Positions 13,671 to 41,321 of a stretch of DNA of 64,000 nt are shown here, piece after piece (the stretch's first letter is position 1; each line of letters begins with the position of its first letter). The stretch is from Escherichia phage HildyBeyeler: sequence record MZ501074. One strand, given 5' to 3'. The position numbers were made by a program, and so were the translations under genes. Under the pieces are notes generated by a model. That model was not told where the DNA came from and searched no databases. It worked only from the letters and a program-made list of their open reading frames with translations.

Positions 13671-13913
13671 TTATGATTCTTTGAGCAAAGAAGAAAGTTC
13701 AGCATATACTTTATCTAACTCAAACCCTATGCGAAGAGATACGTTAGTCCTCCGTTGTTTAAGTAACCACTCGGATATGTTAGGGATGCCAGCTAGTCTA
13801 GCAGGAACCACCCTACATAGCTTCTCCGAAGTATCATAAACAGGGACTTTACGTTCTTTTACTGGAAACTTCCTTGTTTCCCATTTTTTATTCTTCACTG
13901 TCATTTCTAGCAC
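13671..13913 (-). CDS. hypothetical protein (80 aa)
   Basis: ORF track; overlaps the end of the upstream gene. Confidence 0.45.
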   Translation of the reverse strand: MLEMTVKNKKWETRKFPVKERKVPVYDTSEKLCRVVPARLAGIPNISEWLLKQRRTNVSLRIGFELDKVYAELSSLLKES

Positions 13914-16677
13914 CTAGCTCTGACATTGCTTCTTCTGCCATAGCCTTCTCTTCCTCTGTCATGAATTTGAAAGGAATTGGCATACACTCGATTTTACAAT
14001 AGGTTCTGTACCAGTCTACGATATTCTCCGTGTTCATATCTTTACCAATACCCATCATACCAAGATACATTCTAGCATATTTTGGGTTAGCACTCTGGCC
14101 TGTTTTAAGGAAGAAATCCTTTTTCTTACCTTTTAGAGCTTCTATGAATGGTTTAATGGTTACATTTGAACACTTCTTAATGTCTTCCCAGAACATCTCG
14201 TGCATCTTATGAAAGAATGCAGCTCGATCATTTGGTTTATCTTTGATATATTGTTCAACATGCTCAACTGTTACATCTTTAATAGACTCAAGATGATAAT
14301 AGCGAACAATAAGTAGTTTAGCTTCATACGCATCAGCATGACGTGGAGCACAATAATCCGGAGTTGAATGTAGAATAGCTTTGATTCGCTCTTCTGTGTA
14401 CTCTTTACCAGCACCTTCAATAGTTCCCCAGCTTTCACTGAAAATATCAATAGTTGCACCCTGATCAAGCAAGTAATAACGTAAAGTACTAGTATAGTTC
14501 CTAGATTCCAGCTCCCTGCGACGTGCGTATAATTGCTGTGCTAACTCCAGCCAACCCTCATCAATGTTATACTGTTCAGAACCTGCGGAGAATCCACTCG
14601 TAGATTTATCAATAAAATAATAAATGTTCTGAGCGCCACGGTCGCGCCTGATTGCTTGGAAACGCATGTTTGGCGCTTGATTACTGGTTCTAGTAATAAC
14701 AAATACGTTATCAAAATAGTTGAAGTCAACTCCACTCGTTACGGATGGACTACATAATAAGCAATCAATTTGTTGATCAATTAGCTCATTAGTTGTGTAA
14801 TCCAGAATACGTCTAATATCCACATCTGATGTGGAGTTTGAGTGGATTTCCTTAACTAACGCACCAGTATTACGACGTAGTGCCATGCCCTTCTCATTCA
14901 GCTCATCAGGGCCACAATCAGATACTAGAATAGATTTCTCACCCATCTCTAGAGAAGTCTGAAGTGCAACCCAAATACTGGATTCATCGGGGAACTCATA
15001 AGCGTGAGCTTTTGACAGCATTTTACGGTGATGATTATAAAATGCTACTGGTTTATCGAACTCAATCAAAGAACCATATGCTTCAATTGTTTCAGCACTA
15101 ATATCACCATCGGATAGTATAATGATTTTTGCAGTTGCAAGAATATCACGAAGAACCTGAATACACTCGCGACGTTGCTTAACAACTGGGGCGAATAATA
15201 GGTCATTCATTACTGCATCACATTCATCGATAAAGATTGCATCAATTTGACCAATAAAACTCTTAAACTTATGTAAAGAGTGGATAGTTGTGGACATACG
15301 GTCAATAGCACCACGCTTAAAATTAAGCATATCTACAGACTTATCATATTGTCCTGCACTAAATTTCTTGGCATTTGAAGACACCAGTGCCCTAGTATTG
15401 GTAATTGCTAAGAAATTACCTTTAATAACTCCTGAATCTAACCAACGCACAACTGCCGTGGTTTTACCTGTACCTAGACTTGCTTTTACAAAAGTCATAT
15501 AACCTTCTGGTGGTACAGTGTTTAATTTCAAGAAGTTATCAGTTTCTAGAGAATTAGTTTCTAATTTTTTAAGTGGAACACCTTTTAATACTTCTGGGAT
15601 CTCACGCTTAGAGTTATTAACAAAGGCTTTTAATGCCTGTTTTCGACCGTTATTAAAATAATCTTGAATATTACGACTATTATCTTTAGTTGCAATATAC
15701 TCAGATAAAGCTGGGCGGATCTCCTTCTCTAGCCAACCAAAATCTACACCATCCTCTAACGCTCGGTGATATAGCTTTGGAATAATACGTAGATATACAC
15801 CATCCTCAGCCTCTTCTAACTCGCTAATGGTTTCTTCTACTTTATCAGAAGCAATCTTTTTGCCTTTAATTTGATCGAGTAAAGAGTAGAATTCCTCTTT
15901 AAACTCCCCTCTAGTTGTTTCATAGTCAACCAGATTATTAGGTAAATTTACTTTAGAACCCTTAACAAATACCAGACGTGAAGCACCCTCCGCTTTAAAC
16001 GGATCAACTATACCATCAGTAAATAAAGGATCTGCAAAGTAATGGAGCTGTACGGAAGAGTAATAAGCTAAGTCGGCAATATCAAAGCCATACTTTTGTC
16101 TACTACTTTCATTGATAGATGTAAATAAGAACTTGATCTGACCCTGTGTAACTTTAACATTAGATTCTAGTATTAAGTGCATTCGGATACCTGGTTTTAG
16201 TCCAGCCGAAGACGATGCATGAGCAATAAACCCTGCATCAAGAGGAAACATATCCTCACTAATACTATTCAACATTCTAATAATATGACGCGCCATGCCA
16301 ACAAGATCAAACTTGTTACAACCTCCTGTATCTACAATACCATCCACGTCCATTGCAATTATATGACTTGGGTTAGATACATTAAAGTTGTCCTTCTTAC
16401 GCCGCACATTATTTTTAGGTGCAAGACATCGACCTCGTACCGCAACGATATGGGGGTCAGACGTTAAACGTCTCATAAGAGGGAGCATTTCTACTAGGGT
16501 TTGAGGATCAACTTCATCAATTACATCAAACTTGAAGGGCATTGAAGCTGGTTTACCTTCAGGATGCTTTGAGGAAAATCTTTTAGCAAAAAGATAATCT
16601 TCTGCTTTAACTTCTCGCCAATTGCCCGTGGCTAAATCGCGATGAAATCCTGCATGACCTTGTAGGATTGAGAACAC
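13888..16677 (-). CDS. putative replication origin-binding protein / SF2 helicase (~929 aa), GTG start
   Basis: P-loop FVKASLGTGKTTAV and DEAD-like IFIDECDAV; the track ORF extends to 16875, but an AGGAG RBS supports the GTG at 16677. Confidence 0.65.
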   Translation of the reverse strand: MFSILQGHAGFHRDLATGNWREVKAEDYLFAKRFSSKHPEGKPASMPFKFDVIDEVDPQTLVEMLPLMRRLTSDPHIVAVRGRCLAPKNNVRRKKDNFNVSNPSHIIAMDVDGIVDTGGCNKFDLVGMARHIIRMLNSISEDMFPLDAGFIAHASSSAGLKPGIRMHLILESNVKVTQGQIKFLFTSINESSRQKYGFDIADLAYYSSVQLHYFADPLFTDGIVDPFKAEGASRLVFVKGSKVNLPNNLVDYETTRGEFKEEFYSLLDQIKGKKIASDKVEETISELEEAEDGVYLRIIPKLYHRALEDGVDFGWLEKEIRPALSEYIATKDNSRNIQDYFNNGRKQALKAFVNNSKREIPEVLKGVPLKKLETNSLETDNFLKLNTVPPEGYMTFVKASLGTGKTTAVVRWLDSGVIKGNFLAITNTRALVSSNAKKFSAGQYDKSVDMLNFKRGAIDRMSTTIHSLHKFKSFIGQIDAIFIDECDAVMNDLLFAPVVKQRRECIQVLRDILATAKIIILSDGDISAETIEAYGSLIEFDKPVAFYNHHRKMLSKAHAYEFPDESSIWVALQTSLEMGEKSILVSDCGPDELNEKGMALRRNTGALVKEIHSNSTSDVDIRRILDYTTNELIDQQIDCLLCSPSVTSGVDFNYFDNVFVITRTSNQAPNMRFQAIRRDRGAQNIYYFIDKSTSGFSAGSEQYNIDEGWLELAQQLYARRRELESRNYTSTLRYYLLDQGATIDIFSESWGTIEGAGKEYTEERIKAILHSTPDYCAPRHADAYEAKLLIVRYYHLESIKDVTVEHVEQYIKDKPNDRAAFFHKMHEMFWEDIKKCSNVTIKPFIEALKGKKKDFFLKTGQSANPKYARMYLGMMGIGKDMNTENIVDWYRTYCKIECMPIPFKFMTEEEKAMAEEAMSELGARNDSEE

Positions 16678-17273
16678 AACAATACTCCTGTGTTGGAAAT
16701 GAAATAAGTTTTCTTTAGGACTATTCAGAAAGAATAGAACAACTGTTACTGTCAATTTCTCAACAATTAATCGCAAATACTGAAGTGGGGTGGCAACTTC
16801 CACTTTCACGCTGCGCTGCTGCCTCATTATACCGCACAAATCCTTGAGGATGGCCGCTAAGCCGGATTTGCTCACCTAATGCTTCATATACTAGCTCATA
16901 CTAGATGCAATATAACTTACAGAATCACGTCTCGGTAGTTTTTCACTCCTCCCATCTCACTTCACAACCACCTCATACTAGGTTGCTTCGAGGCCTTACC
17001 AGGGTTCCTATGGGACGCAGATCGCTAAGTATTCTATTAACTATTTGTTTAAAAACTAACACGTAACAGTTAAAACAACCCTTAATGGGGCAGCCTAACT
17101 GTTCCGTATCGCGGATTGTAAACAAGAAAAAACTTTTTCGTAAAGCTCTAGCAACGTACCTTATGCAGCTATTTACGGGTCATCGATTCCTCTCGCCGTA
17201 AATCCATTGTCAGCTTCACTAAGAAAAATTAGCAAAATCAATTTTTACTAATGTCTCTCAATTCAATATAAAT

Positions 17274-17302
17274 ATTATAGCAAGATTTTGAGCATCATGC
17301 AA
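17274..17302 (-). promoter_or_regulatory. sigma70 promoter (TTGCAT, 17 bp, TATAAT)
   Basis: Consensus hexamers with the conserved downstream box TTGAATTGAGAGAC. Confidence 0.6.
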
Positions 17303-17378
17303 GTAAATTTTTAAGGAGAATGCTATCAGTGTCTTTGAGCACAGTGAAAACCGAGCCAAAATGACTCGGTTATGTGGA

Positions 17379-17573
17379 TTAGACACTTAAAATACTTCTA
17401 ATCTCTTCTATATACTTATCTACTTTTTTAGCATCTATTTTACTTAGTTTTCCTATATCAAAATCAGGATCAGTCAAATATCTTGCCATAAATTTTACTT
17501 GTTTAGCTGAAAGTTGACCCTTATTCCACTTTTTAATTTTACCATAACATACCCAATATTCTTTATTCATCAT
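17379..17573 (-). CDS. hypothetical protein (64 aa)
   Basis: ORF track. Confidence 0.4.
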   Translation of the reverse strand: MMNKEYWVCYGKIKKWNKGQLSAKQVKFMARYLTDPDFDIGKLSKIDAKKVDKYIEEIRSILSV

Positions 17574-17955
17574 TTAGTCCCGAAACATAAATCCCAACAC
17601 GGTTTAATTGTTCTTTGGCTTCTTTGAGAATATCTGGAGTGTACTCCCAAATATCATCTTCCACCTGTAAAAGATGGGGCGAACAACCGTCATCGGGCAC
17701 ACGACATATGGCCAAACCACGTGGATGGAACAAAGAGAAATTTAGTGCAACAATTAAACCCATAGCAGACAACTCATTCCAATCCAATTCCCATTCCCTA
17801 GCGTAGCCTGATAGGAAAACACCAATACAGGGATCGTCTATTTGCTGCTCCGGAAAAGTAAAGGAGGCTTGTCTTACCCCCAACCAACGTTGTAGCAGCT
17901 TCTCCGCACGCTTCACCAAACTAGGATCAATCTGACGCCAATATACTTGTTCCAT
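17563..17955 (-). CDS. hypothetical protein (130 aa), paralog of 17965-18393
   Basis: Shares CIG...W.EL...MGL..ALN..LF.P with the neighbouring gene. Confidence 0.55.
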   Translation of the reverse strand: MEQVYWRQIDPSLVKRAEKLLQRWLGVRQASFTFPEQQIDDPCIGVFLSGYAREWELDWNELSAMGLIVALNFSLFHPRGLAICRVPDDGCSPHLLQVEDDIWEYTPDILKEAKEQLNRVGIYVSGLNDE

Positions 17956-17964
17956 TGTGCCACC

Positions 17965-18393
17965 TTAGGCAGTTAAACCAGGAATTTGATAACCAAAACG
18001 ACGAAGTTTCTGGATACCATCATTTACTTCTTCCGGTGAGTAAGACCAACCGTAATGTTCATCAACTTGAAAGCCAGGAGATTCACTGGTTTTATAGTTA
18101 ACAACAATACGGTGTTTATTGGGCATAAATAGCTTATAGTTTAATGCAAAAACCAACCCCATTTCATCCAGCTCTTTCCAGCCGACAATCTCTTCCAGAC
18201 CATCCTCTACCTGCACAACTAGACCAATACACGGGGCCTCATCAATATCATCTTTAAAAGCAAAGGAGATTTCATTATTTTCACACCATATTTTCAAGGA
18301 GTTAATAGTCTCATTATACAGGCTAGCTGGGAGAGTACGCCAGAAGTTAACCAAAATTGGATTAGCTTCTTTAGAGAATACATTATTGAACAT
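17965..18393 (-). CDS. hypothetical protein (142 aa), paralog of 17563-17955
   Basis: Shares a conserved central block with the adjacent gene. Confidence 0.55.
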   Translation of the reverse strand: MFNNVFSKEANPILVNFWRTLPASLYNETINSLKIWCENNEISFAFKDDIDEAPCIGLVVQVEDGLEEIVGWKELDEMGLVFALNYKLFMPNKHRIVVNYKTSESPGFQVDEHYGWSYSPEEVNDGIQKLRRFGYQIPGLTA

Positions 18394-18395
18394 AT

Positions 18396-18902
18396 TTACA
18401 CCTTAAGTTGTTGTAGGGCTTTACACATTTCAAGATCTGGACTAAATTCTAGCATATAGCTAACAGCCATTAAATCTTGAAGGTTTATTCCAGTTCTACC
18501 GTTGACTATAACCGTTGGATACTGGTACATCATAGCACCAGCGTCATCCAGCACACACCAATGTTTGAGCTTATGCTTTTCAACGAAGCGAAGAACAGAA
18601 TTACCCCTAGATAGCCCACCACCAGTAAAATCCGTTGTACCAAGAAAACGATCAATAAGATCTAATCTGGTCATAATCTGAACGTTCTCCATCTCATTCC
18701 TGACAGAGAACCATGAAGATACCCCAACAATCATTATTGGAGAAGGACGAATAAAGTCCTGAAAAGCCTTGAGAAGCGGCTTAAAAACCCAGTCACTTCC
18801 AAAGAAAATCTTTTCATCATCAGGTGCATGATGGTGGGAGATGCTCGAATTAAGCACCCCATCGATGTCTAGAAAAATAATTGGAGTATTACTTATTTCC
18901 AT
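18396..18902 (-). CDS. HAD-superfamily phosphatase-like protein (168 aa)
   Basis: N-terminal HAD motif I IIFLDIDGVL and a downstream VLDD motif. Confidence 0.6.
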   Translation of the reverse strand: MEISNTPIIFLDIDGVLNSSISHHHAPDDEKIFFGSDWVFKPLLKAFQDFIRPSPIMIVGVSSWFSVRNEMENVQIMTRLDLIDRFLGTTDFTGGGLSRGNSVLRFVEKHKLKHWCVLDDAGAMMYQYPTVIVNGRTGINLQDLMAVSYMLEFSPDLEMCKALQQLKV

Positions 18903-20727: not shown

Positions 20728-22554
20728 TTACTTAAGATTTAAGTGTTTTACTCTACCAAGAACTTCTTTTTGTTTCCCAGAATTGAAAGGCCTACTGCTA
20801 GGGGATCCCAAGTACCCGCAAACCCTACGTGTAACCTCTATTTCTTCAGACCCACAACTCGGACATACAAACCCACGTTCAGAGGCAACAGATTCACCCA
20901 TATACCCACAGTTGAAGCACTCATCAATTGGTATATTAACACCAATATAATGGCTACATTCTAGCCCCTTATCCACCACATACTCAAGAGCTTTGTGGAA
21001 CTTTTTCATTTGAGGTAGTTCCACAAATGATATATTACCACCATTAGCTATTTTGGTAAAATGAGCCTCGTACTCAAATTTAGTATCTGGGGCTACCTTC
21101 TCTCTTACGTCCAAATGGTGACTATTAGTGAGATAGCCTTTATCTGTTAGCCAAGAATACTCTGGGAATCTACGTTCTAGTAATTTATTAAAACGATTAC
21201 ATAGAGACTCACTAGGAGTAGCGTATAAGCTAAATCCAAGATTAGTCTCATTAGCTTTAACTTCGCAACGATTTTTTAGGTGAGTAAGAACTTCTTCTGT
21301 AAATTCAATACAATCCCTATGGGTTTGTGGTAGACCAAACATTATTTGGCACATCTCATAGACCCCAATGTATCCAAGAGATACAGAAGATCTACCCTCA
21401 AAAATAGGCCATACATACTCTTCCCCATCTAAACGCACACCAAAACCACCGTGCATATAAAGAATAGGGGCTTGTTTAGCCTTAACTTTCTTCAGTCTGT
21501 TTAAGAAGAAGTCATGCGCTTCAAAAGCCTCATCCACATATTTGTCTAGAATATCCCAGAAATCTTCAAAAACCCCATCTGCCTCAGCAGCAACCATAGG
21601 TAGATTAATAGACACTACACCTAAATTATTGCGCCCTGCAATTTCTCCGGAGGGGATAGCAGATAAAAAGCTACGACAACCCATAGGTGCTTTAAAATCA
21701 CCAGTAACAGCTACAACTTTCTCATAGCTTAAATAGTCCGGGTACATACGGGTAGCAGAACACTCAAGTGCTAGCTGTTTTATATCGTAGTTAGGATCGC
21801 CTGGATTTTTATTTAACCCTTCTTTAACTGAGAATACTAGTTTAGGGAAGATAGGGGTTGACTCAGCAGCACCTAAACCTTTAATACGGTTTTGGAGGAT
21901 GGCTTTCTGAATCATCCTTTCCTCCCACTCCTGTCCTAGCCCAAAGCCAAGCGTAACAAAAGGAGTCTGTCCATTAGAGTTAAATAATGAATTAGTTTCA
22001 TACTCTAGGGCTTGGAATGCGTCATAACACTCTTTTTCAGTGAGTTCAGTAGCATATACAGCAGCTTTCCTTTCATCCTTGAGCCAACGTAGACCACGAC
22101 CCAGGTGCTTATCATAAGACTTTCTGACATAAGGGGCTAAAACCTCATCGATACGATCAATAGAAGTGCCACCATACTGAGCACCAGATACTTGGGCAAT
22201 AATCTGAGCAGTGATTGCACATGCAGTAGTTATGGATTTAGGAGTTTCAATATTTGCATTACCAATTTTAGTACCATTCTTCAGCATGCCACCAAGGTCT
22301 ACTAAACAACAGTTAGTGTATCCCTGTGCCCTGTAATCCATATCATGGATGTGTATTTTACCTAGATTATGGGAGTCTAATAGATGTTTAGGTAATTCTT
22401 GTGCTACTAAATACTTGTTGATTTCTCCAGCTAATAAGTCTCTTTGGGTATGGAACATCTCACTAGGCTTATTAGCATTATTATGTTGTAAGTCCTTATC
22501 AGCAGTTAGAGTGAGCAGGCCTTTGCAATTCTCAATTAATTCATTCTCTGTCAT
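20728..22554 (-). CDS. nrdD: anaerobic ribonucleoside-triphosphate reductase (class III RNR), 608 aa
   Basis: C-terminal zinc ribbon CFNCG...CPSCG and glycyl-radical motif RVCGYLG. Confidence 0.9.
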   Translation of the reverse strand: MTENELIENCKGLLTLTADKDLQHNNANKPSEMFHTQRDLLAGEINKYLVAQELPKHLLDSHNLGKIHIHDMDYRAQGYTNCCLVDLGGMLKNGTKIGNANIETPKSITTACAITAQIIAQVSGAQYGGTSIDRIDEVLAPYVRKSYDKHLGRGLRWLKDERKAAVYATELTEKECYDAFQALEYETNSLFNSNGQTPFVTLGFGLGQEWEERMIQKAILQNRIKGLGAAESTPIFPKLVFSVKEGLNKNPGDPNYDIKQLALECSATRMYPDYLSYEKVVAVTGDFKAPMGCRSFLSAIPSGEIAGRNNLGVVSINLPMVAAEADGVFEDFWDILDKYVDEAFEAHDFFLNRLKKVKAKQAPILYMHGGFGVRLDGEEYVWPIFEGRSSVSLGYIGVYEMCQIMFGLPQTHRDCIEFTEEVLTHLKNRCEVKANETNLGFSLYATPSESLCNRFNKLLERRFPEYSWLTDKGYLTNSHHLDVREKVAPDTKFEYEAHFTKIANGGNISFVELPQMKKFHKALEYVVDKGLECSHYIGVNIPIDECFNCGYMGESVASERGFVCPSCGSEEIEVTRRVCGYLGSPSSRPFNSGKQKEVLGRVKHLNLK

Positions 22555-22744
22555 TGATTATTTCCTCAATAAACTTTATAGCTACTTTTGGTTCAATATT
22601 GAAGAATTCCGTAGCGCCGTCAAAATCTTTGTACTGGCAATTCTGCTCTTTAAAGTAGTTATGGGCTAATTTTTCTATTCGAACTGCACTACTATATTCT
22701 CCAATTTCAAATACTTTAATTTTTTCGGCATTACTCTTCTCCAC
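22541..22744 (-). CDS. hypothetical protein (67 aa)
   Basis: ORF directly downstream of minus-strand promoter 22760-22788. Confidence 0.4.
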   Translation of the reverse strand: MEKSNAEKIKVFEIGEYSSAVRIEKLAHNYFKEQNCQYKDFDGATEFFNIEPKVAIKFIEEIINDRE

Positions 22745-22759
22745 AGAATTTTCACACCT

Positions 22760-22788
22760 ATTATACTAAACATTATCCACTATGTCAA
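22760..22788 (-). promoter_or_regulatory. sigma70 promoter (TTGACA, 17 bp, TATAAT), divergent from the phoH promoter
   Basis: Consensus hexamers on the minus strand upstream of 22541-22744 and nrdD. Confidence 0.6.
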
Positions 22789-22925
22789 TTAAAATTTTCT
22801 TTCGCCACCTAATACTGTAATATTCCGCGTATAAATAAATGATTATCTAATACCATACATTTCCCGTTAAAAGCAAGCAAATTTTTTATTTAAATGCAAT
22901 ATCATAGGCTTATTTAAAATTGTAG

Positions 22926-22954
22926 TTGCTTTTTACTGCATATACTGGTATAAT
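22926..22954 (+). promoter_or_regulatory. sigma70 promoter (TTGCTT, 17 bp, TATAAT) for phoH and nrd genes
   Basis: Consensus hexamers with A/T-rich upstream region. Confidence 0.65.
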
Positions 22955-23030
22955 ATATTTGTAAGTTGATAAACAAGATCTCTTTGTTGATCCTCTGTTA
23001 GAAGCGAAGTACACTATAGGAGTGTTATGT

Positions 23031-23783
23031 ATGGGAAAAGCACGTCAAAAAAGAGAGAACCGCAATGGTTCAAGAAAGCGTGGCAACAAATATGAGAATA
23101 ACGTAATTCAGGCTGATTTTTCTAATGATTACGCTAACCCAGTTGCTAAATCCCTAGTAGGTAAAAACCGAGAGCAAAAATCATATATCAATATGATCAA
23201 GAACAACACAGTGACTGTGGGTATCGGTGAGCCAGGTACAGGTAAAACCTTTATCCCGTCTGTTCTTGCAGCTCAGGAACTCGTAGACATTCACTCAGAT
23301 ATTGAGCAAGTGATCCTCGTACGTCCTAATGAACCTCTAGGTAAGTCTCTTGGTATGCTTCCTGGTGATCTAGCAGAAAAGCTAGAGCCTTGGTTGGAGC
23401 CAATAGCTGATGGTATGAAATGGGCCATCGGTGATCATGCCTATAGGGGATACGTCGAACGTCAGAAAATTAAATTTTTGGCTATCGAACATGCTCGTGG
23501 CAGAACTTTCAACAACTCCTATGTAATTGTCGATGAAGCTCAGAATATTTCCGTTGAGGCAATGATTTGTCTCCTAACTCGTGTAGGACAAGACTGCCGT
23601 TTAATTATCTGCGGAGATATAGCTCAGAAAGACATTAAAGGTGACTCAGGTCTAGCACTCCTTATGGAAGTCTATGAGAAATACGAAAATGCCCCCTTCT
23701 CAATGATCGAATTGATTGATAACGTTCGTTCTGCTGAGTCTAAAGCATTCTACGATATTTTTAAAGACATGGGGAAGGTGTAA
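23031..23783 (+). CDS. phoH: PhoH-like ATPase (250 aa)
   Basis: Walker A GIGEPGTGKTF, Walker B VIVDEAQN; AGGAG RBS before the ATG at 23031. Confidence 0.8.
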   Translation: MGKARQKRENRNGSRKRGNKYENNVIQADFSNDYANPVAKSLVGKNREQKSYINMIKNNTVTVGIGEPGTGKTFIPSVLAAQELVDIHSDIEQVILVRPNEPLGKSLGMLPGDLAEKLEPWLEPIADGMKWAIGDHAYRGYVERQKIKFLAIEHARGRTFNNSYVIVDEAQNISVEAMICLLTRVGQDCRLIICGDIAQKDIKGDSGLALLMEVYEKYENAPFSMIELIDNVRSAESKAFYDIFKDMGKV

Positions 23784-23784
23784 T

Positions 23785-23982
23785 ATGGGAGACGTTGTAC
23801 ATCTACACCGAAAAACTAAAATACATCGTACTTCACTGAGTGCTGCTAATATGATTACACGTAAGGAAGGGGAAGAAAGTCCTAAGACTACCCTAGCGTG
23901 GAAAATTGTAACCTCAAATCCAAATCGGCCCTTCAATTATAACGAACTAAGTACCTCAATAGATATTCTGCTGAGAACTTAA
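23785..23982 (+). CDS. hypothetical protein (65 aa)
   Basis: ATG overlaps the phoH stop (TAATATGG); GAAGG RBS. Confidence 0.45.
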   Translation: MGDVVHLHRKTKIHRTSLSAANMITRKEGEESPKTTLAWKIVTSNPNRPFNYNELSTSIDILLRT

Positions 23983-24126
23983 GTGGCCAAAAACTAGACT
24001 GACAACACAGAAGGCCTGGGTATGAAAGTACTCGGGCCTTTTCTATCAGAAAATTTTATTTGCCAAATGACTGAGAATAAAGTAAACTATTTCCTAAATC
24101 CTGATAACTATAAAAAGGAAAGCCAA

Positions 24127-36245: not shown

Positions 36246-36468
36246 ATATTAATAAATTAGAGAACAGCGGGCCGATTACGCTGAGTGCAGAATCCAAACC
36301 GGAGTGCATTGAATAGAGTCGGTGGGTTAGTTGTAAAACTAGTACACAGTGGGCGGCAATCCCGGTTAGTGGCTAGAACGTGTAAAATGGGGCGTCTGAA
36401 ACCTCTCCCCTAAACTCTTCTCTAGTTTATAAATAGTGGGGTGTGGAAATCACTTATGTAGTAACACT

Positions 36469-36540
36469 GCCGATCTAGTATAAACGGTATTATCAAGCCG
36501 TAACTGGTGGAAGATGTAGGTTCGAATCCTACGATCGGTA
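36469..36540 (+). other. tRNA-like minihelix element (7-bp acceptor-like stem plus T-arm; no anticodon arm found)
   Basis: GCCGATC at 36469-75 pairs with GATCGGT at 36533-39; GTAGG-TTCGAAT-CCTAC T-arm at 36516-32; interior does not fold into D and anticodon arms. Confidence 0.3.
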
Positions 36541-37041
36541 AGAACTGGATAACTGGTGCTTTTAACGTAAAAGCTTCCGAGGTTAGTTGCGCACTGCCTA
36601 AACCACGCGGTAGTTGGTTCCAGACTAACCAACCAGTCTGCTGAATAGTTTTATTACGATTTAACTATGTCCAGGCTAAAGAAGAACTTTAGAAGGTATT
36701 CTAGGTGGTGAAGTTTTTCCTCCATATCGGAGTAGTTTTTCAAGCTACCAACAAAGTGGGAAATGCTGACATGAGAGATGTCACTAATGGTGCACAATAG
36801 CACAGGTAATTCGCGATAACTCCTGTTGAGTAGCAGCAAAAGGCGGGAAGTCATGACCCCAAGCCTAACCGAGTCCTCAATATACCGCAGGACATAACCA
36901 CTAAGTCACCCTGACTTAAACTGGAAAATAATAGACGTTACTGTATTTTGTCTTGAAATACTTAATGAGTGAGACTTATGACTCTCCCGGTATCGTCTGT
37001 ATTTTTAAGAGTTTTTACGAGAGTTCTTAAAAATACTTAAA

Positions 37042-37116
37042 CGGGGTGTAGTCTAAGGGAGAGGCAGGAGTCTTCTAAATTCCTTTATGCAGGTTCGAAT
37101 CCTGTCACCTCGGCCA
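37042..37116 (+). tRNA. tRNA-Arg (anticodon UCU), CCA encoded
   Basis: Hand fold: acceptor CGGGGTG/CACCTCG, D-arm, anticodon loop CU-UCU-AA, T-arm GCAGG-TTCGAAT-CCTGT, G73, CCA. Confidence 0.75.
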
Positions 37117-37150
37117 ATTTTATTAACTGTAACTAAAACAAAGGAAATAT

Positions 37151-38098
37151 ATGTTTAATACTAAAAATATGAAAGAACTGACTTCTGAGCAAAAAGTAAT
37201 TCGCACTATTAAACGTTGGGGTATTGGTTCTGTAGTTGGTTTAGCAGGTTTAATCCTAGCTTTTAATTCATATACTATTGTTTCTGATGGTACAGTTAAA
37301 ACCCAAACATTTCTGGGTAAAGTAGATCCTAACCCAGTATTACCTGGTTTCCATCTTGTAAACCCATTTGCATCTTTCGATACTTTTAGTACAAAAGATA
37401 TTGCTGTAAAATTAGATAAACTTCAGGTTCCTAGCCAGGATAAGTTTAAATCCACTGTTGACCTGACTGTTATGTTGCAGTTTGATGGTTCTAAGGCACC
37501 GATCAACCGTATTAATGCAGGTACTCAGGATCAGGCGTTAGACAAATATGTTACTGAAAAATTACTGTCTACCATCCGTGAGTTTGGTAAGTCTGTACCT
37601 AAAGCACAAGATTTGTTTGATGCTAAAATTCAAGCACAATTACAAACTGCAATTCAACAGGAAGTTGAAGAGTATGCACGCCCTTATGGTTACACAGTTA
37701 AGCAAGTGTTCCTTCAGGATATTACATTGCCACCGGTAATTATGGAACAGGTACAGAATACCAAAGTTCGTGAAGAACAAGTTAATGCTGCGAAAGCTGA
37801 ATTGGCTCGTGTTGAACAAGAAGCACAGCAGAAGGTTAAACAAGCAGAAGCAGATCGTGAAGCTCGTAACAACCAAGCTATTGCAAACGAACGTGATGCA
37901 GATGCTAAACTGTATGCAGCTAAGAAAGAAGCCGAAGCTAACGCCGCTCTGCAACGTACTATTACTCCTGAGATGATTCGCTGGAAACAACTAGAAGTTG
38001 AAATGACTCGTGCTCAGAAGTATCAAGGTGGTGTGCCTCAGACTGTAGTAGGTACTGGTTACGATGGTCAAATGATCATGGATATGCGTAACAAGTAA
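37151..38098 (+). CDS. SPFH/band-7 (stomatin/prohibitin-like) membrane protein (315 aa)
   Basis: N-terminal TM helix, SPFH core, long Ala/Glu-rich coiled coil; terminator follows. Confidence 0.65.
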   Translation: MFNTKNMKELTSEQKVIRTIKRWGIGSVVGLAGLILAFNSYTIVSDGTVKTQTFLGKVDPNPVLPGFHLVNPFASFDTFSTKDIAVKLDKLQVPSQDKFKSTVDLTVMLQFDGSKAPINRINAGTQDQALDKYVTEKLLSTIREFGKSVPKAQDLFDAKIQAQLQTAIQQEVEEYARPYGYTVKQVFLQDITLPPVIMEQVQNTKVREEQVNAAKAELARVEQEAQQKVKQAEADREARNNQAIANERDADAKLYAAKKEAEANAALQRTITPEMIRWKQLEVEMTRAQKYQGGVPQTVVGTGYDGQMIMDMRNK

Positions 38099-38121
38099 TA
38101 GTTACACGTAATCTTCGAAGT

Positions 38122-38161
38122 AAGCCCTGTGTTCCCTGGAGAGCGCAGGGCTTTTCTGTTT
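38122..38161 (+). terminator. intrinsic terminator after the SPFH gene
   Basis: AGCCCTG...CAGGGCT stem followed by TTTCTGTTTT. Confidence 0.6.
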
Positions 38162-38324
38162 TAAGGTAGAGGATAAGTGTGTCTCTTTGGTCACTCAGCT
38201 ATGACAAATACTTTACACTATATCACATTGAAAATCAAGTGGGGATAACAATTTTGGGGTCTATCCACTTACCTGCTACCCTTAAGCATCCTGTTATTTT
38301 CCTCTAAAAAGTTAAAAAATTCAA

Positions 38325-38353
38325 TTGCTTGAATGCTAAATTCTCTGTATAAT
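38325..38353 (+). promoter_or_regulatory. sigma70 promoter (TTGCTT, 17 bp, TATAAT)
   Basis: Consensus hexamers plus ACTTATAAATTTGAGAGAGAGG box. Confidence 0.7.
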
Positions 38354-38385
38354 ATACTTATAAATTTGAGAGAGAGGAATCTAGT

Positions 38386-38904
38386 ATGACTGTTGATGAA
38401 CTAACAGAACATCTCTTATCTAGAGGGTTTGATACAGATAAGTATCATTGCTGGTTAAGTCCGGAAGGATGGCTAACAGTCCCGTTGTATGACTTCTCTG
38501 GGATGTTGAGAGGCTATCAGACTTATAATCCTTCTGCTCCAAAAGGTCATGGTAAGTGCCCCTTTGAAGCTAAATATTTTACTTATTCAACTACACAGTG
38601 TGTATGGGGATTAGAAACTCTCAATGGAGATGAAAAAGTAGTATTGATTGCTGAATCTGTATTTAAGGCAGTTGCGTTACATAACGCTGGTTATCCAGCC
38701 CTGGCAATGTTGGGTTCTTCCCCCGGAAAAGCATTGTTAAAGCAATTGAAATTATTACCTTTTAAATTGGTAGCTGTCGGAGATAATGATCCTGCGGGTG
38801 AAAAATTTGCTAGAAAATTAAACGGCTTTGTTTCTCCTGTAGATGTAGATGAGATGTCTACCGAAAACTTGAAAAATTTTCTTGCTATGAAGCTAAATTT
38901 CTAA
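38386..38904 (+). CDS. hypothetical protein, possible Toprim-like domain (172 aa)
   Basis: VVLIAESVFKAVAL...LVAVGDNDPAGEKFARKL; 3' end overlaps promoter 38882-38910. Confidence 0.4.
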   Translation: MTVDELTEHLLSRGFDTDKYHCWLSPEGWLTVPLYDFSGMLRGYQTYNPSAPKGHGKCPFEAKYFTYSTTQCVWGLETLNGDEKVVLIAESVFKAVALHNAGYPALAMLGSSPGKALLKQLKLLPFKLVAVGDNDPAGEKFARKLNGFVSPVDVDEMSTENLKNFLAMKLNF

Positions 38905-38910
38905 TATAAT
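38882..38910 (+). promoter_or_regulatory. sigma70 promoter (TTGCTA, 17 bp, TATAAT) overlapping the 3' end of CDS 38386-38904
   Basis: Consensus hexamers directly upstream of tRNA-Ser. Confidence 0.6.
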
Positions 38911-38924
38911 ATATTTATAAATTC

Positions 38925-39013
38925 GGAAGAATAGCATAACGGTATTGCAGCAGATTGCTAATCTGTCGGTTTGAAATATAGCCTTGTGGGTTCGATTCCC
39001 ACTTCTTCCGCCA
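38925..39013 (+). tRNA. tRNA-Ser (anticodon GCU), long variable arm, CCA encoded
   Basis: Acceptor GGAAGAA/TTCTTCC, anticodon loop UU-GCU-AA, long extra arm, T-arm GTGGG-TTCGATT-CCCAC. Confidence 0.75.
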
Positions 39014-39019
39014 AATTCT

Positions 39020-39097
39020 GGTTCTCAAGCTCATATGGTATGAGCACCCAGCTCATAACTGGAAGGTACGTAGGTTCGAATCCTCGGGGAGCCACCA
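39020..39097 (+). tRNA. tRNA-Met or Ile2 (anticodon CAU), CCA encoded
   Basis: Acceptor GGTTCTC/GGGAGCC with G-U pairs, D-stem GCTC/GAGC, anticodon loop CU-CAU-AA, TTCGAAT T-loop; T-stem imperfect. Confidence 0.6.
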
Positions 39098-39116
39098 AAT
39101 TAAATAAGGACAACTA

Positions 39117-39305
39117 ATGGAATTATTCATAGTTTCTGTTAAATTTGCACAAGATAGAGAACGTTCGGATGAGTTTAAACAAGGGTACAGACTAGTAAAG
39201 GCTACATCTGAACTCCATGCTATGGACAAAGTAGTAGACTATATGTATAATGTAGAAGATGTTTACTACGTCAATGCTTTAGAAGCCTCAAAAGTAATTG
39301 ACTAA
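39117..39305 (+). CDS. hypothetical protein (62 aa)
   Basis: AAGGA RBS. Confidence 0.45.
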   Translation: MELFIVSVKFAQDRERSDEFKQGYRLVKATSELHAMDKVVDYMYNVEDVYYVNALEASKVID

Positions 39306-39314
39306 GGAGACTAT

Positions 39315-39500
39315 ATGTCTAAGTTTCAAGAACTCAAGCAAGAGCTAGAAGAATGTGCCTGCCCTGAGTGTAGAGGAATTGGTGAAAGTTCTGATGCAGA
39401 AGCAGTGGATACTTTTTGCAATATCTGGGTTTGCCCAAATTGCAAGGGTACAGGTATTAATCCTAACTGTGGTATTTCTCTAGATATTGAAAGAGGATAA
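39315..39500 (+). CDS. small zinc-ribbon protein (61 aa)
   Basis: Two CxxC pairs (CACPEC, CPNCKG); AAGGAG RBS. Confidence 0.5.
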   Translation: MSKFQELKQELEECACPECRGIGESSDAEAVDTFCNIWVCPNCKGTGINPNCGISLDIERG

Positions 39501-39505
39501 TACCT

Positions 39506-39595
39506 GTGAAACTAAAAGATTATTATATTGGTTGGTTTGTGGGACTAGTAGTAGGATTTTCACTAGGCTATAATATGTATCAACTAATAAACTGA
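39506..39595 (+). CDS. small hydrophobic peptide (29 aa), GTG start
   Basis: AGAGGA RBS 7 nt before the GTG; predicted single TM helix; ends 7 nt before a tRNA. Confidence 0.35.
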   Translation: MKLKDYYIGWFVGLVVGFSLGYNMYQLIN

Positions 39596-39601
39596 TTACA
39601 T

Positions 39602-39678
39602 GGGGGTGTAATCGAATTGGCATAGGTACTGTACTTAAAATTCAGGTTTTGTGGGTTCGAATCCCACCACCCCTACCA
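39602..39678 (+). tRNA. tRNA with anticodon UAA (Leu-type) but short variable arm, CCA encoded
   Basis: Acceptor GGGGGTG/CACCCCT, anticodon arm CTGTA-CUUAAAA-TTCAG, T-arm GTGGG-TTCGAAT-CCCAC, A73. Confidence 0.55.
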
Positions 39679-39693
39679 AATTAAGGAAATAAG

Positions 39694-39861
39694 ATGTATA
39701 GACATCCACCTCCGCCAACACGTCGTTCTAGAGAAGTTATTCTCATGGAATTGACGAAAAACTTCAAGGCAACCCTTGAGGATAGAGACTTAGGTACAGA
39801 TGAAGACGTTGATTTTATCTGTAAACTATTAAAAATGAAACTGGAGAAGCAACATGGCTAA
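39694..39861 (+). CDS. hypothetical small protein (55 aa)
   Basis: AAGGAAATAAG RBS; stop overlaps the next start; below the ORF-track cutoff. Confidence 0.45.
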   Translation: MYRHPPPPTRRSREVILMELTKNFKATLEDRDLGTDEDVDFICKLLKMKLEKQHG

Positions 39862-40060
39862 TCCTGAAATTACCATGCAACGACTCATGACTAAAGGTAT
39901 GATATCCGAGGCAGGCATTGAACAAGAAGTAAAAAGTTATTACGAACAGATTAAGGGTATTATAGACTCTGCTAAAAACACAGGAGAAAAAGAACACGGT
40001 GCAGCAATTATGGCTATAACTCTTATTAGTCTAGACTTGGCAGAAGAATCTGGAGTTTAG
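39854..40060 (+). CDS. hypothetical protein (68 aa)
   Basis: ORF track. Confidence 0.45.
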   Translation: MANPEITMQRLMTKGMISEAGIEQEVKSYYEQIKGIIDSAKNTGEKEHGAAIMAITLISLDLAEESGV

Positions 40061-40090
40061 CTCCTCCAAACAGAATTTTTAAAAATGTAC

Positions 40091-40120
40091 TTGCCTTTTG
40101 CTTTAAATTTCTGGTATAAT
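40091..40120 (+). promoter_or_regulatory. sigma70 promoter (TTGCCT, 18 bp, TATAAT)
   Basis: Hexamers plus AGTTATATAAATTGATGAAGGAG box. Confidence 0.6.
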
Positions 40121-40150
40121 AGTTATATAAATTGATGAAGGAGTTAACGA

Positions 40151-40426
40151 ATGCAAAATCGTGTTATAGCAACTGGTATTGAAAGTGCAATCTGTAAATC
40201 CTGGGAAGGCTGGGAAGGTGAGATTGAATGGCTTTATTTCTACGATGTAGAACTTCTGCCGGAAATTAAAGCTAAATGTGTTGAAGCTGGCATGGCTCCA
40301 GATGCAAAAGCTGATATTGATATTTCAATGTCTGAACTTAAAGGTCGTGTAGTTACCGTTAGTAATGAGGGCGAAGAAGTTTTTGAACTTCCGTTCTCCT
40401 TAGCTGTCACTCCTAAGTTCGACTAA
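40151..40426 (+). CDS. hypothetical protein (91 aa)
   Basis: Promoter 40091-40120 and GAAGGAG RBS. Confidence 0.5.
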   Translation: MQNRVIATGIESAICKSWEGWEGEIEWLYFYDVELLPEIKAKCVEAGMAPDAKADIDISMSELKGRVVTVSNEGEEVFELPFSLAVTPKFD

Positions 40427-40434
40427 CTAATACA

Positions 40435-40473
40435 GCACTGAGCAAGTCCTTTAAAATTTGACTTGCTCAGTGC
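40435..40473 (+). repeat. perfect 14-bp inverted repeat (GCACTGAGCAAGTC / GACTTGCTCAGTGC) with an 11-nt spacer
   Basis: Arms at 40435-48 and 40460-73 are exact reverse complements; the 3' arm contains the -35 of promoter 40463-91. Confidence 0.8.
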
Positions 40474-40491
40474 CTTAAAACTTGGTATAAT
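40463..40491 (+). promoter_or_regulatory. sigma70 promoter (TTGCTC, 17 bp, TATAAT); -35 lies in the 3' arm of a 14-bp palindrome
   Basis: Hexamers at 40463-68 and 40486-91. Confidence 0.6.
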
Positions 40492-40625
40492 AGTTATCTA
40501 ATTTGGAAAGTTCTTTTTAAGGTAGTTCTTACTTTAGCAGAGTAAACTTTCGGCAGATGGTGGCAGCCACTTTACCGATATTCCATAGTCAGTGCCGCAA
40601 ACACTGGCTACCTTAAAGAGAATTT

Positions 40626-40713
40626 GGGCGTTTATTCCGTAAGTGGTAGCGGAGGGGATTGTAAATCCCTGGTCATTGCGACTCGAGTGGTTCGACTCCA
40701 TTAACGCCCACCA
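40626..40713 (+). tRNA. tRNA-Tyr (anticodon GUA), long variable arm, CCA encoded
   Basis: Acceptor GGGCGTT/AACGCCC, anticodon arm GGGGA-UUGUAAA-TCCCT, extra arm, TTCGACT T-loop. Confidence 0.65.
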
Positions 40714-40721
40714 AATTTAAT

Positions 40722-40796
40722 GCACCTATCGTCTAATGGCTAGGACATCAGGATTTCAATCTGAGAATCGGAGTTCAATTCTCCGTGGGTGTACCA
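40722..40796 (+). tRNA. tRNA-Glu (anticodon UUC), CCA encoded
   Basis: Acceptor GCACCTA/TGGGTGT, anticodon arm TCAGG-AUUUCAA-TCTGA, T-arm CGGAG-TTCAATT-CTCCG. Confidence 0.7.
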
Positions 40797-40804
40797 ATTT
40801 CTGC

Positions 40805-40881
40805 ATTCCTAGAGTGTTACTGGACAGCATGTCGGTCTCCAAAACCGTACGGTCTAGGTTCGAGTCCTAGTAGGTTTGCCA
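40805..40881 (+). tRNA. probable tRNA-Trp (anticodon CCA), CCA encoded; 5' boundary uncertain
   Basis: Anticodon arm TCGGT-CUCCAAA-ACCGT, T-arm CTAGG-TTCGAGT-CCTAG, 3' G-CCA; acceptor has U-U mismatches. Confidence 0.5.
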
Positions 40882-40887
40882 AAATTT

Positions 40888-40962: not shown

Positions 40963-40978
40963 AATTGAAGGAGCTGCT

Positions 40979-41273: not shown

Positions 41274-41321
41274 AATTACATAAATTGAACTGGAGAAGCA
41301 ACATGATAGAACAAGATAAAT

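What the first reader, a model, noticed from the sequence alone, without database searches (positions are those of the whole stretch)
16678..17273. A 600-nt leader precedes the origin-binding/helicase-like gene
The nearest upstream minus-strand promoter is at 17274-17302. The best-supported start of the large gene is the GTG at 16677, which has an AGGAG RBS; the track's longer frame to 16875 lacks any RBS. That leaves about 600 nt of transcribed sequence with only very short ORFs, including a stable hairpin (ATTTACGG...CCGTAAAT, revcomp of 17173-17205) and an internal TATAAT. It could be a regulatory leader, a replication origin region, or a small RNA.
Basis: partly seen in the sequence, partly recalled or inferred. 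Interest (0 to 1): 0.5.

Follow-up and report, generated by a model that had tools for sequence, protein, structure and literature searches.

The report
Large structured RNA leader in T5-like phages
The 600 untranslated bases ahead of this T5-like phage's big replication gene are not spacer: they specify a large RNA whose folds are conserved across T5 relatives, matches no catalogued RNA family, and has no known function.

Summary
A T5-type early promoter (17302-17274) lies 590 nt upstream of the GTG at 16677, which is the true start of the 929-aa 'origin-binding protein' (obp) gene. Nothing in between is coding. The interval is a conserved, highly structured RNA of about 490-500 nt; it is 590 nt here because of an optional 97-nt domain.

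It has a 5'-terminal hairpin, a 28-40-bp stem that closes a core of about 200 nt, and an invariant loop GCUUAGCGGC. The same architecture occurs in six lineages: window/EH1 type, T5 type, Klebsiella, Providencia, Pectobacterium phages and one metagenomic lineage. Their sequences have diverged to near-random, yet 46 of 56 hand-aligned base pairs show compensatory double changes. Wobbles number 27 G-U and no A-C, which points to the transcribed strand.

Rfam 15 has no match, and the papers I could search do not describe it. The internal TATAAT is a helix arm, not a promoter.

Function is inferred only. The best guess is a leader RNA processed at the long stem that controls obp expression or partners with obp. 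An RNA II-like origin primer and an excised trans-acting RNA remain open.

The parts
17349..17371 (-). Intrinsic-terminator hairpin (AACCGAGUCA/UGGCUCGGUU followed by U-run) that ends the upstream operon, so the leader starts a new transcription unit
   Evidence: (inverted repeat I15). Annotated as a terminator in HASG4 and T5.
17274..17302 (-). T5-type sigma-70 early promoter: -35 TTGCAT 17302-17297, 17-nt spacer, -10 TATAAT 17279-17274, upstream A-tract. Predicted start near A17267.
   Evidence: Equals T5P32 in AY587007. Conserved in all lineages. Activity is inferred, not shown.
17220..17260 (-). H1: 5'-terminal hairpin, with a lower stem UGAGAGA/UUUCUUA and an upper stem AUUAGUAAAA/UUUUGCUAAU
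   Evidence: Present in the minimum-energy fold of every lineage. 12 of 13 curated pairs show double-sided changes.
17132..17228 (-). Optional 97-nt accessory domain flanked by the 8-nt direct repeat TTTTTCTT (17228-17221 and 17131-17124).
   Evidence: Absent from most relatives. Present once, at this locus only, in 49 phage records. Single copy in the window. Folds as a self-contained domain.
17089..17105 (-). H2: small hairpin GG-AA-CAG[UUAGG]CUG-CC inside the most conserved segment of the 5' module
   Evidence: Predicted by RNAalifold on a sequence-only alignment. Compensatory variants are CAG/CUG to CGG/CCG in L094 and GG/CC to AG/CU in Klebsiella phages.
17027..17073 (-). H3, 5' arm of the long closing stem
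   Evidence: Pairs with 16782-16739. The duplex has 28-40 bp in 8 sequences of 6 lineages, z from -2.2 to -8.3, with 0 of 1000 shuffles as good in 6 of 8. Also seen.
16808..17025 (-). Core domain of about 218 nt, closed by H5 (GCG-AU-CUGCG 17025-17016 with CGCAGCGU 16815-16808). Helices inside: Ha 17015-17010/16955-16950; Hd 16986-16981/16969-16964; Hz 16915-16908/16834-16827; Hy 16907-16900/16880-16873; He 16871-16864/16843-16836.
   Evidence: The core is 202-226 nt in all lineages. H5 covaries: CUGCG/CGCAG, CUACA/UGUAG, CUGUG/CACAG, CUAGA/UCUAG. For the 3' half, the tool count gives 81.7% paired against 67.6% shuffled, 20 of 30 pairs with double changes, and 0 of 500 shuffles as high. Covariance model R1 recovers lineages A, B, C, E and F and weakly D.
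16853..16862 (-). Invariant loop sequence GCUUAGCGGC, presented by helix He
   Evidence: Invariant in all 14 sequences of 6 lineages, while the closing helix takes 4-5 different pair types per position. UUAGCGG also sits in hairpin loops upstream of obp in Aeromonas phages.
16783..16805 (-). Hf hairpin (AAGUGG/CCACUU) with loop AAGUUGCCACC
   Evidence: Compensatory variants are AGUGG/CCACU, AGGGG/CCCCU, AUAUG/CAUAU and AGGAG/UUCCU.
16739..16782 (-). H3, 3' arm of the long closing stem
   Evidence: Inverted repeat I12 is its base.
16721..16737 (-). Hg hairpin (CUAUUC/GAAUAG) directly after the closing stem. No U-run follows, so it is not a terminator.
   Evidence: Other lineages read UACUAU/AUAGUA, CUUUCC/GGAAAG and CUAUC/GAUAG.
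16675..16689 (-). Shine-Dalgarno AGGAG (16689-16685), 7-nt spacer, GTG start (16677-16675)
13888..16677 (-). obp gene, 929 aa, annotated 'replication origin binding protein'. The UL9-like SF2 helicase region lies around residues 390-690. The N-terminal 380 aa has no recognised family.
   Evidence: PHROG 3712, full length. Pfam Herpes_ori_bp. PDB sequence matches to UL9-type origin-binding proteins. No family found for the N-terminus.

Best explanation
The interval is the DNA for a large, conserved, structured RNA made as the 5' leader of the obp early transcript.

Shown. A conserved T5-type promoter lies just upstream. The region has no coding capacity. The fold comprises a hairpin near the predicted 5' end (H1), a small conserved hairpin (H2), a 28-40-bp stem (H3) that clamps a multi-helix core of about 200 nt closed by H5, an invariant GCUUAGCGGC loop, a second conserved loop (GUUGCCACC), and a hairpin (Hg) directly after the clamp. 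All of this is maintained by compensatory substitutions in six phage lineages.

Inferred. The long H3 duplex works like the processing stalks of rRNA precursors and the RNase III sites of T7 early RNAs. Cleavage there would leave H1 protecting the primary transcript. It would release a compact core RNA. It would also leave obp mRNA with Hg near its new 5' end. The core, through its invariant loops, would bind a protein partner. The most economical candidate is the co-inherited N-terminal half of obp. Binding would set the amount or timing of obp synthesis, or assemble an RNA-protein complex used at replication initiation.

I hold the 'conserved structured RNA' part at about 0.9 and this specific mechanism at about 0.3-0.35.
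For: Promoter and start codon.

Non-coding status.

Structure.
- Minimum-energy folds give the same architecture in lineages A, B, E and F, with variations in C and D.
- H3 duplexes of 28-40 bp have z from -2.2 to -8.3, although the arms are only 47-79% identical between lineages.
- RNAalifold on a sequence-only alignment predicts 31 pairs, 19 of them with double-sided changes.
- The named structure on MAFFT alignment A3 gives 81.7% paired against 67.6% shuffled and covariation 0.443 against at most 0.256 for slid partners; no shuffle of 500 reached the observed value for either measure. The result is similar on 23 distinct sequences.
- Hand-curated helices have 56 pair columns, 98.6% canonical, 46 with compensatory double changes. 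Shuffles give 70.4% and 19.9.
- Those helices contain 301 Watson-Crick, 27 G-U and 0 A-C pairs, which points to the transcribed strand.

Invariant loop.

Linkage with the obp N-terminal half: between the window and T5 the RNA core is 56-64% identical and obp residues 1-450 are 88-90% identical. obp residues 550-900 are essentially identical (98-100% per 50-residue block) and the leader's 5' module is 96% identical.

Synteny: every Demerecviridae relative sampled has an ORF-poor gap upstream of obp, about 490-620 nt in the enterobacterial lineages and about 0.7-1.6 kb in Vibrio, Aeromonas and metagenomic relatives.
Against: There are no transcript data: the start site, the processing and even transcription of this region are inferred.

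The thermodynamic signal of a single sequence is modest: z = -2.3 for the window and -1.4 for T5.

The curated helix registers were chosen by eye, which inflates the paired fraction and biases the G-U versus A-C count. The unbiased tool counts are weaker (78-82% paired).

Model R1 did not improve the register for lineage B. It detects Providencia only at E = 0.07 and detects nothing in Vibrio or Aeromonas phages.

RNase III cleavage and obp binding are analogies, not tests. The nature of the obp N-terminus could not be resolved.
Confidence: 0.45

Rival explanations
1. Replication origin with an RNA II-like or T4 oriF-like primer transcript. The strong promoter makes a folded RNA of about 500 nt. 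Its 3' part would stay hybridised to the template near the start of obp and prime leading-strand synthesis, or load obp. The variable core would then be a replicon-specificity determinant.
For: Its length and layout resemble ColE1 RNA II: a promoter about 500-550 nt upstream and a folded RNA (established knowledge). It lies immediately upstream of the gene annotated as origin-binding protein in all relatives. T5 origins map near the genome centre (10.1101/866236), and the T5 homologue is at 48.6-49.0%. The core is cassette-like and co-inherited with the obp N-terminal half.
Against: There are no iterons or repeated boxes. DnaA boxes are at chance level, with none inside the leader. There is no skew inflection here. 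No AT-rich unwinding element stands out beyond the promoter. No antisense promoter exists for an RNA I-like regulator. The transcript must also continue as obp mRNA. The old origin mapping is far too coarse to place an origin here.
Confidence: 0.2
2. Independent trans-acting non-coding RNA. The core, clamped by H3, would be excised and accumulate as a stable RNA that acts on a host or phage factor, for example in host takeover or anti-defence. It would merely share a promoter with obp.
For: The end-to-end clamp (H3) is the geometry of excised stable RNAs. In Aeromonas phage TS3 and Vibrio phage D233 a terminator-like hairpin separates the upstream region from obp. The core diverges much faster than the flanking genes and carries an optional extra domain.
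Against: The strict synteny with obp across a whole phage family argues for a replication-linked or cis role. In the enterobacterial lineages there is no terminator before obp. No complementarity or partner was identified.
Confidence: 0.2
3. Single-stranded-DNA hairpins rather than RNA. The same-sense strand, displaced during transcription or replication, would fold, and a hairpin loop (GCTTAGCGGC) would be a priming or loading signal. This resembles the ssi sites of RSF1010 recognised by the RepB' primase.
For: Conserved hairpins with an invariant loop lie next to a gene some annotators call a primase. The obp N-terminus carries a DxD motif and a serine-rich segment ending in histidine, but this reading is an inference.
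Against: About 8% of curated pairs are G-U wobbles. A 300-nt long-range clamp and GNRA-like loops are typical of RNA, not of DNA signals. ssi signals are single hairpins of about 40 nt. The primase nature of obp is unproven.
Confidence: 0.07
4. Ordinary long 5' UTR. The hairpins would only stabilise the mRNA and shield an untranslated stretch from Rho, with no specific function for the core.
For: A 5'-terminal hairpin and a G-over-C bias on the RNA strand fit stabilisation and Rho avoidance.
Against: Ten helices are maintained by compensatory change. An invariant 10-nt loop persists across lineages that are otherwise near-randomised. The length is conserved (core 202-226 nt). A phage under genome-size pressure would not keep 500-1500 nt for this purpose across a family.
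Confidence: 0.06
5. Coding after all: obp would start at 16875 (995 aa), or the interval would encode small proteins, as some GenBank records annotate.
For: The frame is open for 66 codons upstream here. GEC_vB_N5 and other records annotate 3-4 small ORFs.
Against: The open stretch shrinks to 2-30 codons in relatives. No ribosome-binding site precedes 16875. The N-terminus is conserved from MFSILEG. There is no frame-specific conservation and no PHROG hit.
Confidence: 0.02

Closest known systems
RNase III processing stalks: rRNA precursor stems and the R sites of T7 early RNAs
   Same: The sequences flanking a structured domain pair into a long, nearly perfect duplex of 28-40 bp. This lies in an early phage transcript made by host RNA polymerase.
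   Different: Cleavage is untested. The enclosed domain is a 200-nt RNA of unknown function rather than rRNA. T7 R sites are local hairpins, not 300-nt long-range clamps.
ColE1 RNA II (pre-primer) and the T4 oriF/oriG and T7 primary-origin transcripts
   Same: A strong promoter followed by about 500 nt of non-coding, folded transcript, placed next to replication genes.
   Different: There is no antisense RNA I-type promoter, no identified hybrid-forming G/C runs and no unwinding element. The transcript here runs on into a translated gene. Origin function is unproven.
Large 'ornate' bacterial and phage RNAs (GOLLD, ROOL, OLE, raiA)
   Same: More than 400 nt, many helices supported by covariation, invariant loops, phage association (GOLLD and ROOL occur in phages) and unknown biochemical function.
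   Different: No sequence or structure match to any of them or to any other Rfam 15 model. This RNA is a 5' leader fixed next to one gene and is restricted, as far as seen, to Demerecviridae.
Autoregulatory mRNA operators of phage replication proteins (T4 gene 32, gene 43, RegA targets)
   Same: An RNA element upstream of a replication gene that could bind its own product.
   Different: Those operators are tens of nucleotides long and overlap the ribosome-binding site. This element is about 500 nt, and its conserved loops lie 130-180 nt from the start codon.

Membership tests
Any Rfam 15 family (4227 covariance models, including riboswitches, T-boxes, introns, GOLLD, ROOL, OLE, raiA, 6S, tmRNA, RNase P) | A score against the family covariance model at or near the gathering threshold | tested here: not met
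   No match at E <= 1 in window 15500-18500. None in the upstream regions of 17 related loci, except a chance 23-bit hit to a Brucella sRNA whose gathering score is 114.
ColE1 RNA II-type replication primer | A promoter about 500-550 nt upstream of the RNA-to-DNA transition, making a folded non-coding transcript | tested here: inconclusive
   The promoter-to-obp distance is 494-626 nt and the RNA is folded. No transition point or origin is known.
ColE1 RNA II-type replication primer | An antisense regulator (RNA I) transcribed from the opposite strand within the 5' region of about 110 nt | tested here: not met
   The only promoter-like sites on the opposite (+) strand lie at 16569-16598 and 17387-17416, outside the leader.
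ColE1 RNA II-type replication primer | A persistent RNA-DNA hybrid and RNase H cleavage at the origin | not testable with these tools
   Needs R-loop mapping or in vitro replication.
Protein-bound phage or plasmid origin (iteron or box type, e.g. lambda ori, HSV oriS bound by UL9) | Repeated binding boxes flanking an AT-rich unwinding element | tested here: not met
   Only short two-copy direct repeats, no iteron-like array. The conserved box GCTTAGCGGC occurs once. GC is 0.33-0.50 across the leader apart from the promoter.
RNase III substrate (processing stalk) | A double-stranded RNA segment of about two helical turns or more | tested here: met
   H3 has 28-40 bp in all lineages, with stacks of 10-11 bp separated by single bulges.
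RNase III substrate (processing stalk) | Staggered cleavage that depends on the rnc gene in vivo | not testable with these tools
   Needs end mapping in wild-type and rnc hosts.
Conserved structured RNA (general criterion) | Helices maintained by compensatory substitutions beyond what shuffled and slid controls give | tested here: met
   Caveats: there are few independent lineages, and one alignment was hand-curated.
Protein-coding sequence (N-terminal extension of obp or small ORFs) | A reading frame and peptide conserved between lineages | tested here: not met
Intrinsic-terminator attenuator leader | A GC-rich hairpin followed by a U-run between the promoter and the gene | tested here: not met
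   No terminator-like site on the minus strand between 17267 and 16678. Hg is followed by UCCUAAAG.

The most novel reading that the evidence does not exclude
This would be a new class of large, ornate phage RNA. It would be family-wide in Demerecviridae: about 0.5 kb in T5, Salmonella, Klebsiella and Pectobacterium phages, and possibly 1-1.5 kb in Vibrio and Aeromonas phages. It would be excised from the early transcript and work with the N-terminal domain of the obp helicase as an RNA-protein machine for replication initiation. That would be an RNA cofactor or specificity determinant for a double-stranded DNA phage replicon, recognised through UUAGCGG loops.
Probability: 0.15. Interest if true: 0.9.

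Novelty: new variant of a known kind. Interest (0 to 1): 0.66.

Why it matters
T5 is a seventy-year-old model phage, and its relatives are among the commonest coliphages and Salmonella phages used in therapy and biocontrol. Its replication origin and the role of its 'origin-binding protein' have never been defined.

A 500-nt RNA with a conserved fold sits directly upstream of that gene in every relative examined and matches nothing in Rfam. It gives a concrete, testable handle on how T5 starts or regulates replication.

It also adds a candidate to the short list of large structured RNAs of unknown function. This one occurs in an easily manipulated phage, where deletion, compensatory mutation, RNase III dependence and protein binding can all be tested quickly.

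It corrects annotation as well. Many GenBank records call small ORFs, or a fragment labelled 'origin-binding protein', inside this RNA.

Tried and rejected
- **Rfam scans** at E-value thresholds of the window region and 17 related loci found nothing.
- **tRNA/tmRNA scan** found none near the locus.
- **Promoter/terminator scan** missed the real promoter because of its -35 rule, and found no terminator in the leader.
- **Origin features.** There are no iterons, DnaA boxes are at chance level, and the GC-skew switch lies at about 22-24 kb, not here.
- **The 97-nt insertion as a mobile element** is rejected: it is single-copy in the window and in every genome, always at this locus.
- **Small ORFs or an N-terminal extension** are rejected.
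- **Full-length RNAalifold** on a MAFFT alignment recovered only 31 pairs, because the variable core misaligns.
- **Covariance model R1** kept a one-column register error for some lineages. It did not reach the Vibrio or Aeromonas regions.
- **Structure-conservation index** on the distant Vibrio, Aeromonas and metagenome groups was uninformative. The same test gave near-zero values on the enterobacterial positive control, so it says nothing either way. One earlier run timed out, as did a first shuffle script.
- **The obp N-terminal domain** could not be resolved. It has no Pfam or PDB sequence match. The AlphaFold single-sequence model was unusable at pLDDT 35. The large protein index returned only two fragments. 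The primase idea therefore remains a motif-level guess.
- **A helix sequestering the start region** (GCGAUAC with GUAUUGU), seen in some minimum-energy folds, is not conserved in lineages C, E and F and was dropped.
- **A pseudoknot** between the He loop tail (CCUC) and the downstream GAGG shows no covariation among A-type variants and was dropped.
- **Literature.** Nine searches and several papers yielded no description of this RNA, only the statement that T5 origins lie near the genome centre.

Full report
**Source and setting.** The window is from a T5-like phage (Demerecviridae). Its closest record is Salmonella phage EH1 (Epseptimavirus), 99% identical across the interval. All genes around the finding lie on the minus strand. 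A 64-aa gene (17573-17379, PHROG 29527) ends upstream and is followed by a terminator hairpin at 17371-17349. The large downstream gene (13888-16677) is the one annotated 'replication origin binding protein' (obp) in T5.

**Check of the observation.** The consensus scan missed it because its -35 matches only 3 of 6 positions of TTGACA. It corresponds to 'putative early promoter T5P32' in AY587007. It is conserved 494-626 nt upstream of obp in all lineages.

The start is GTG 16677 with AGGAG 7 nt upstream. Tblastn matches in 32 viral contigs all begin at residue 1. The N-terminus MFSILEG is conserved out to Aeromonas phages, and as MLTFIEG in Vibrio phages. The PHROG profile aligns end to end. 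The in-frame open stretch upstream is 66 codons here but 30, 26, 13, 4 and 2 codons in relatives.

The interval has no conserved reading frame. Translated similarity appears in all six frames and only as short scraps over the nucleotide-conserved ends. ORFs of 45 aa or more occur only in one lineage, and the two tested have no PHROG hit.

**What the interval is.** Alignment of 33 relatives shows three zones: a conserved 5' module, a central part that exists as sharply different 'alleles', and a conserved 3' module. The window also carries a 97-nt insertion (17228-17132) flanked by the direct repeat TTTTTCTT. Most relatives lack it. It occurs in 49 phage records, always once and always at this locus.

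**Sampling of relatives.** I collected the region upstream of obp from six lineages:
- A: the window and EH1 type.
- B: the T5 type.
- C: Klebsiella phages.
- D: Providencia phages.
- E: Pectobacterium phage DU_PP_V.
- F: a metagenomic contig.

Without the insertion the leader is 490-504 nt in A, B, C and E, 528 nt in F, and about 620 nt in D.

**Conserved architecture.** Independent minimum-energy folds give the same plan in A, B, E and F, with variations in C and D:
- H1, a hairpin at the predicted 5' end (17260-17220).
- H2, a small hairpin CAG[UUAGG]CUG (17105-17089).
- H3, a long stem between 17073-17027 and 16782-16739.
- H5, a helix closing the core (17025-17016 with 16815-16808).
- A core of 202-226 nt holding helices Ha, Hd, Hz, Hy and He.
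- Hf, a hairpin at 16805-16783.
- Hg, a hairpin at 16737-16721, directly after H3.
- The ribosome-binding site and the start codon.

**Evidence that the folds are selected.**
1. H3 forms 28-40 bp in eight sequences of the six lineages. Duplex energies lie 2.2-8.3 sd below shuffles, and no shuffle of 1000 was as good in six of the eight. The arms are only 47-79% identical between lineages.
2. RNAalifold on a sequence-only alignment predicts parts of H2, H3 and He. Of its 31 pairs, 19 show double-sided changes.
3. For the 3' half of the core, a named structure counted on a plain MAFFT alignment gives 81.7% paired cells against 67.6% in shuffles. Twenty of 30 pairs have compensatory changes. The covariation score is 0.443 against at most 0.256 with slid partners. 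No shuffle of 500 reached the observed values. On 23 distinct sequences aligned to covariance model R1 the picture is similar.
4. A hand-curated table of ten helices has 56 pair columns. They are 98.6% canonical, and 46 have compensatory double changes. Shuffles give 70.4 ± 2.0% and 19.9 ± 3.0 columns. Clear examples are H5 (CUGCG/CGCAG, CUACA/UGUAG, CUGUG/CACAG, CUGUA/UACAG, CUAGA/UCUAG) and He (AUCC/GGAU, AAUC/GGUU, GGGU/ACCC, UGGU/ACCA, CAUG/CAUG, ACCU/AGGU).
5. The curated helices hold 27 G-U and no A-C pairs. This points to the transcribed strand as the folded one, and so to RNA rather than a DNA cruciform.

There are caveats. The lineages are few. The curated registers were chosen by eye. 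The single-sequence thermodynamic z-scores are modest, at -2.3 and -1.4.

**Conserved sequence.** The loop closed by He reads GCUUAGCGGC (16862-16853) in all 14 aligned sequences of the six lineages.

**Known families.** Rfam 15 gives no match at E <= 1 for the window region or for 17 related loci. Nine literature searches and several papers yielded no description of this RNA. The only relevant statement is that T5 replication origins lie near the centre of the molecule (10.1101/866236). The T5 homologue of the leader is at 59.1-59.6 kb of 121.75 kb.

**Wider family.** Every more distant Demerecviridae relative examined also has an ORF-poor, purine-rich gap upstream of obp:
- At least 1040 nt in Vibrio phage JSF12.
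- About 1590 nt in Aeromonas phage TS3.
- About 700-900 nt in others.

Some of these have a terminator-like hairpin before obp. In the Aeromonas phages, two or three hairpin loops read UUAGCGG, and the stems differ between relatives. Model R1 does not detect these regions, and my structure-conservation test was uninformative. Homology to the enterobacterial RNA is therefore a lead, not a result.

**Origin features.** There are no iterons. DnaA boxes are not enriched and none lies in the leader. No AT-rich block stands out apart from the promoter. The skew switch lies about 5-6 kb away, where the direction of transcription changes.

**Linkage with obp.** Between the window and T5, the leader's 5' module is 96% identical, the core only 56-64%, obp residues 1-450 are 88-90% identical, and residues 550-900 are essentially identical at 98-100% per 50-residue block. 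The core and the N-terminal half of obp thus travel together as a diverged cassette. The N-terminal domain has no recognised family, and I could not model it. The helicase part resembles herpesvirus UL9.

**Mechanism.**

Shown: a promoter-proximal, non-coding sequence with a conserved fold and invariant loops, fixed upstream of obp.

Inferred: the H3 duplex is long enough to be an RNase III substrate (established knowledge of rRNA and T7 early RNA processing). Cleavage would release a compact core and leave obp mRNA with Hg near its 5' end. H1 would protect the primary transcript. The invariant loops would be protein-binding sites, with obp's co-inherited N-terminal half the simplest candidate. 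That would give autoregulation or an initiation RNA-protein complex.

Rivals, with rough weights:
- An RNA II-like origin primer, 0.2.
- An excised trans-acting RNA, 0.2.
- Single-stranded-DNA priming signals, 0.07.
- A merely stabilising UTR, 0.06.
- Coding sequence, 0.02.

**Verdict.** It is a candidate new family of large structured RNA in a classic model phage and its relatives. The structural claim is well supported, and the function is open.

Noticed in passing
window 17132-17228: Optional 97-nt structured domain flanked by the 8-nt direct repeat TTTTTCTT, inserted between H1 and H2 of the leader. It is present in 49 of about 528 T5-like records, in different core backgrounds, always as a single copy at this locus.
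   Followed up: yes
L009, L017, L025, L030, L091 (about 460-970 in L009): In some relatives a 168-aa ORF that looks like a homing endonuclease sits just upstream. It brings a different promoter, which still lies about 14 nt before hairpin H1. H1 therefore stays at the 5' end of the transcript.
   Followed up: partly
L039 1-1041 (Vibrio phage JSF12); L042 19-1608 (Aeromonas phage TS3); L040, L041, L076-L085, L096-L099: Distant Demerecviridae have purine-rich regions of 0.7-1.6 kb upstream of obp with no credible ORF. Some have their own terminator-like hairpin before obp. These may be much larger relatives of the same RNA.
   Followed up: partly
L042 499, 743, 1318; L085 643, 908; L096 649, 915: Hairpin loops reading UUAGCGG recur upstream of obp in Aeromonas phages, with different stems in different phages. 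This is the same heptamer as in the invariant enterobacterial loop.
   Followed up: partly
window 13888-17060 compared with T5 (L004): A divergence cassette: the RNA core is 56-64% identical and obp residues 1-450 are 88-90% identical. By contrast, obp residues 550-900 are 98-100% identical per 50-residue block, and the leader's 5' module is 96% identical.
   Followed up: partly
window 15538-16677 (obp residues 1-380): The N-terminal domain has no Pfam family and no PDB sequence match. It carries an invariant DxD motif (IIAMDVDG) and a serine-rich segment ending in histidine. Public annotations disagree: origin-binding protein, primase, 'primase C', helicase. The 5.8-billion-protein index returned only two fragments.
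   Followed up: partly
window about 22000-24000: GC skew changes sign where transcription switches from the minus-strand early genes to the plus-strand block that carries the tRNA genes.
   Followed up: no
window 36468-47664: A cluster of 21 tRNA genes on the plus strand, including one with anticodon ACU called tRNA-Ser.
   Followed up: no
MW006479 (L001 4261-4790) and other records: Several GenBank records annotate small ORFs inside the leader RNA. One is a 38-aa 'putative replication origin-binding protein'. These are probably annotation artefacts.
   Followed up: yes
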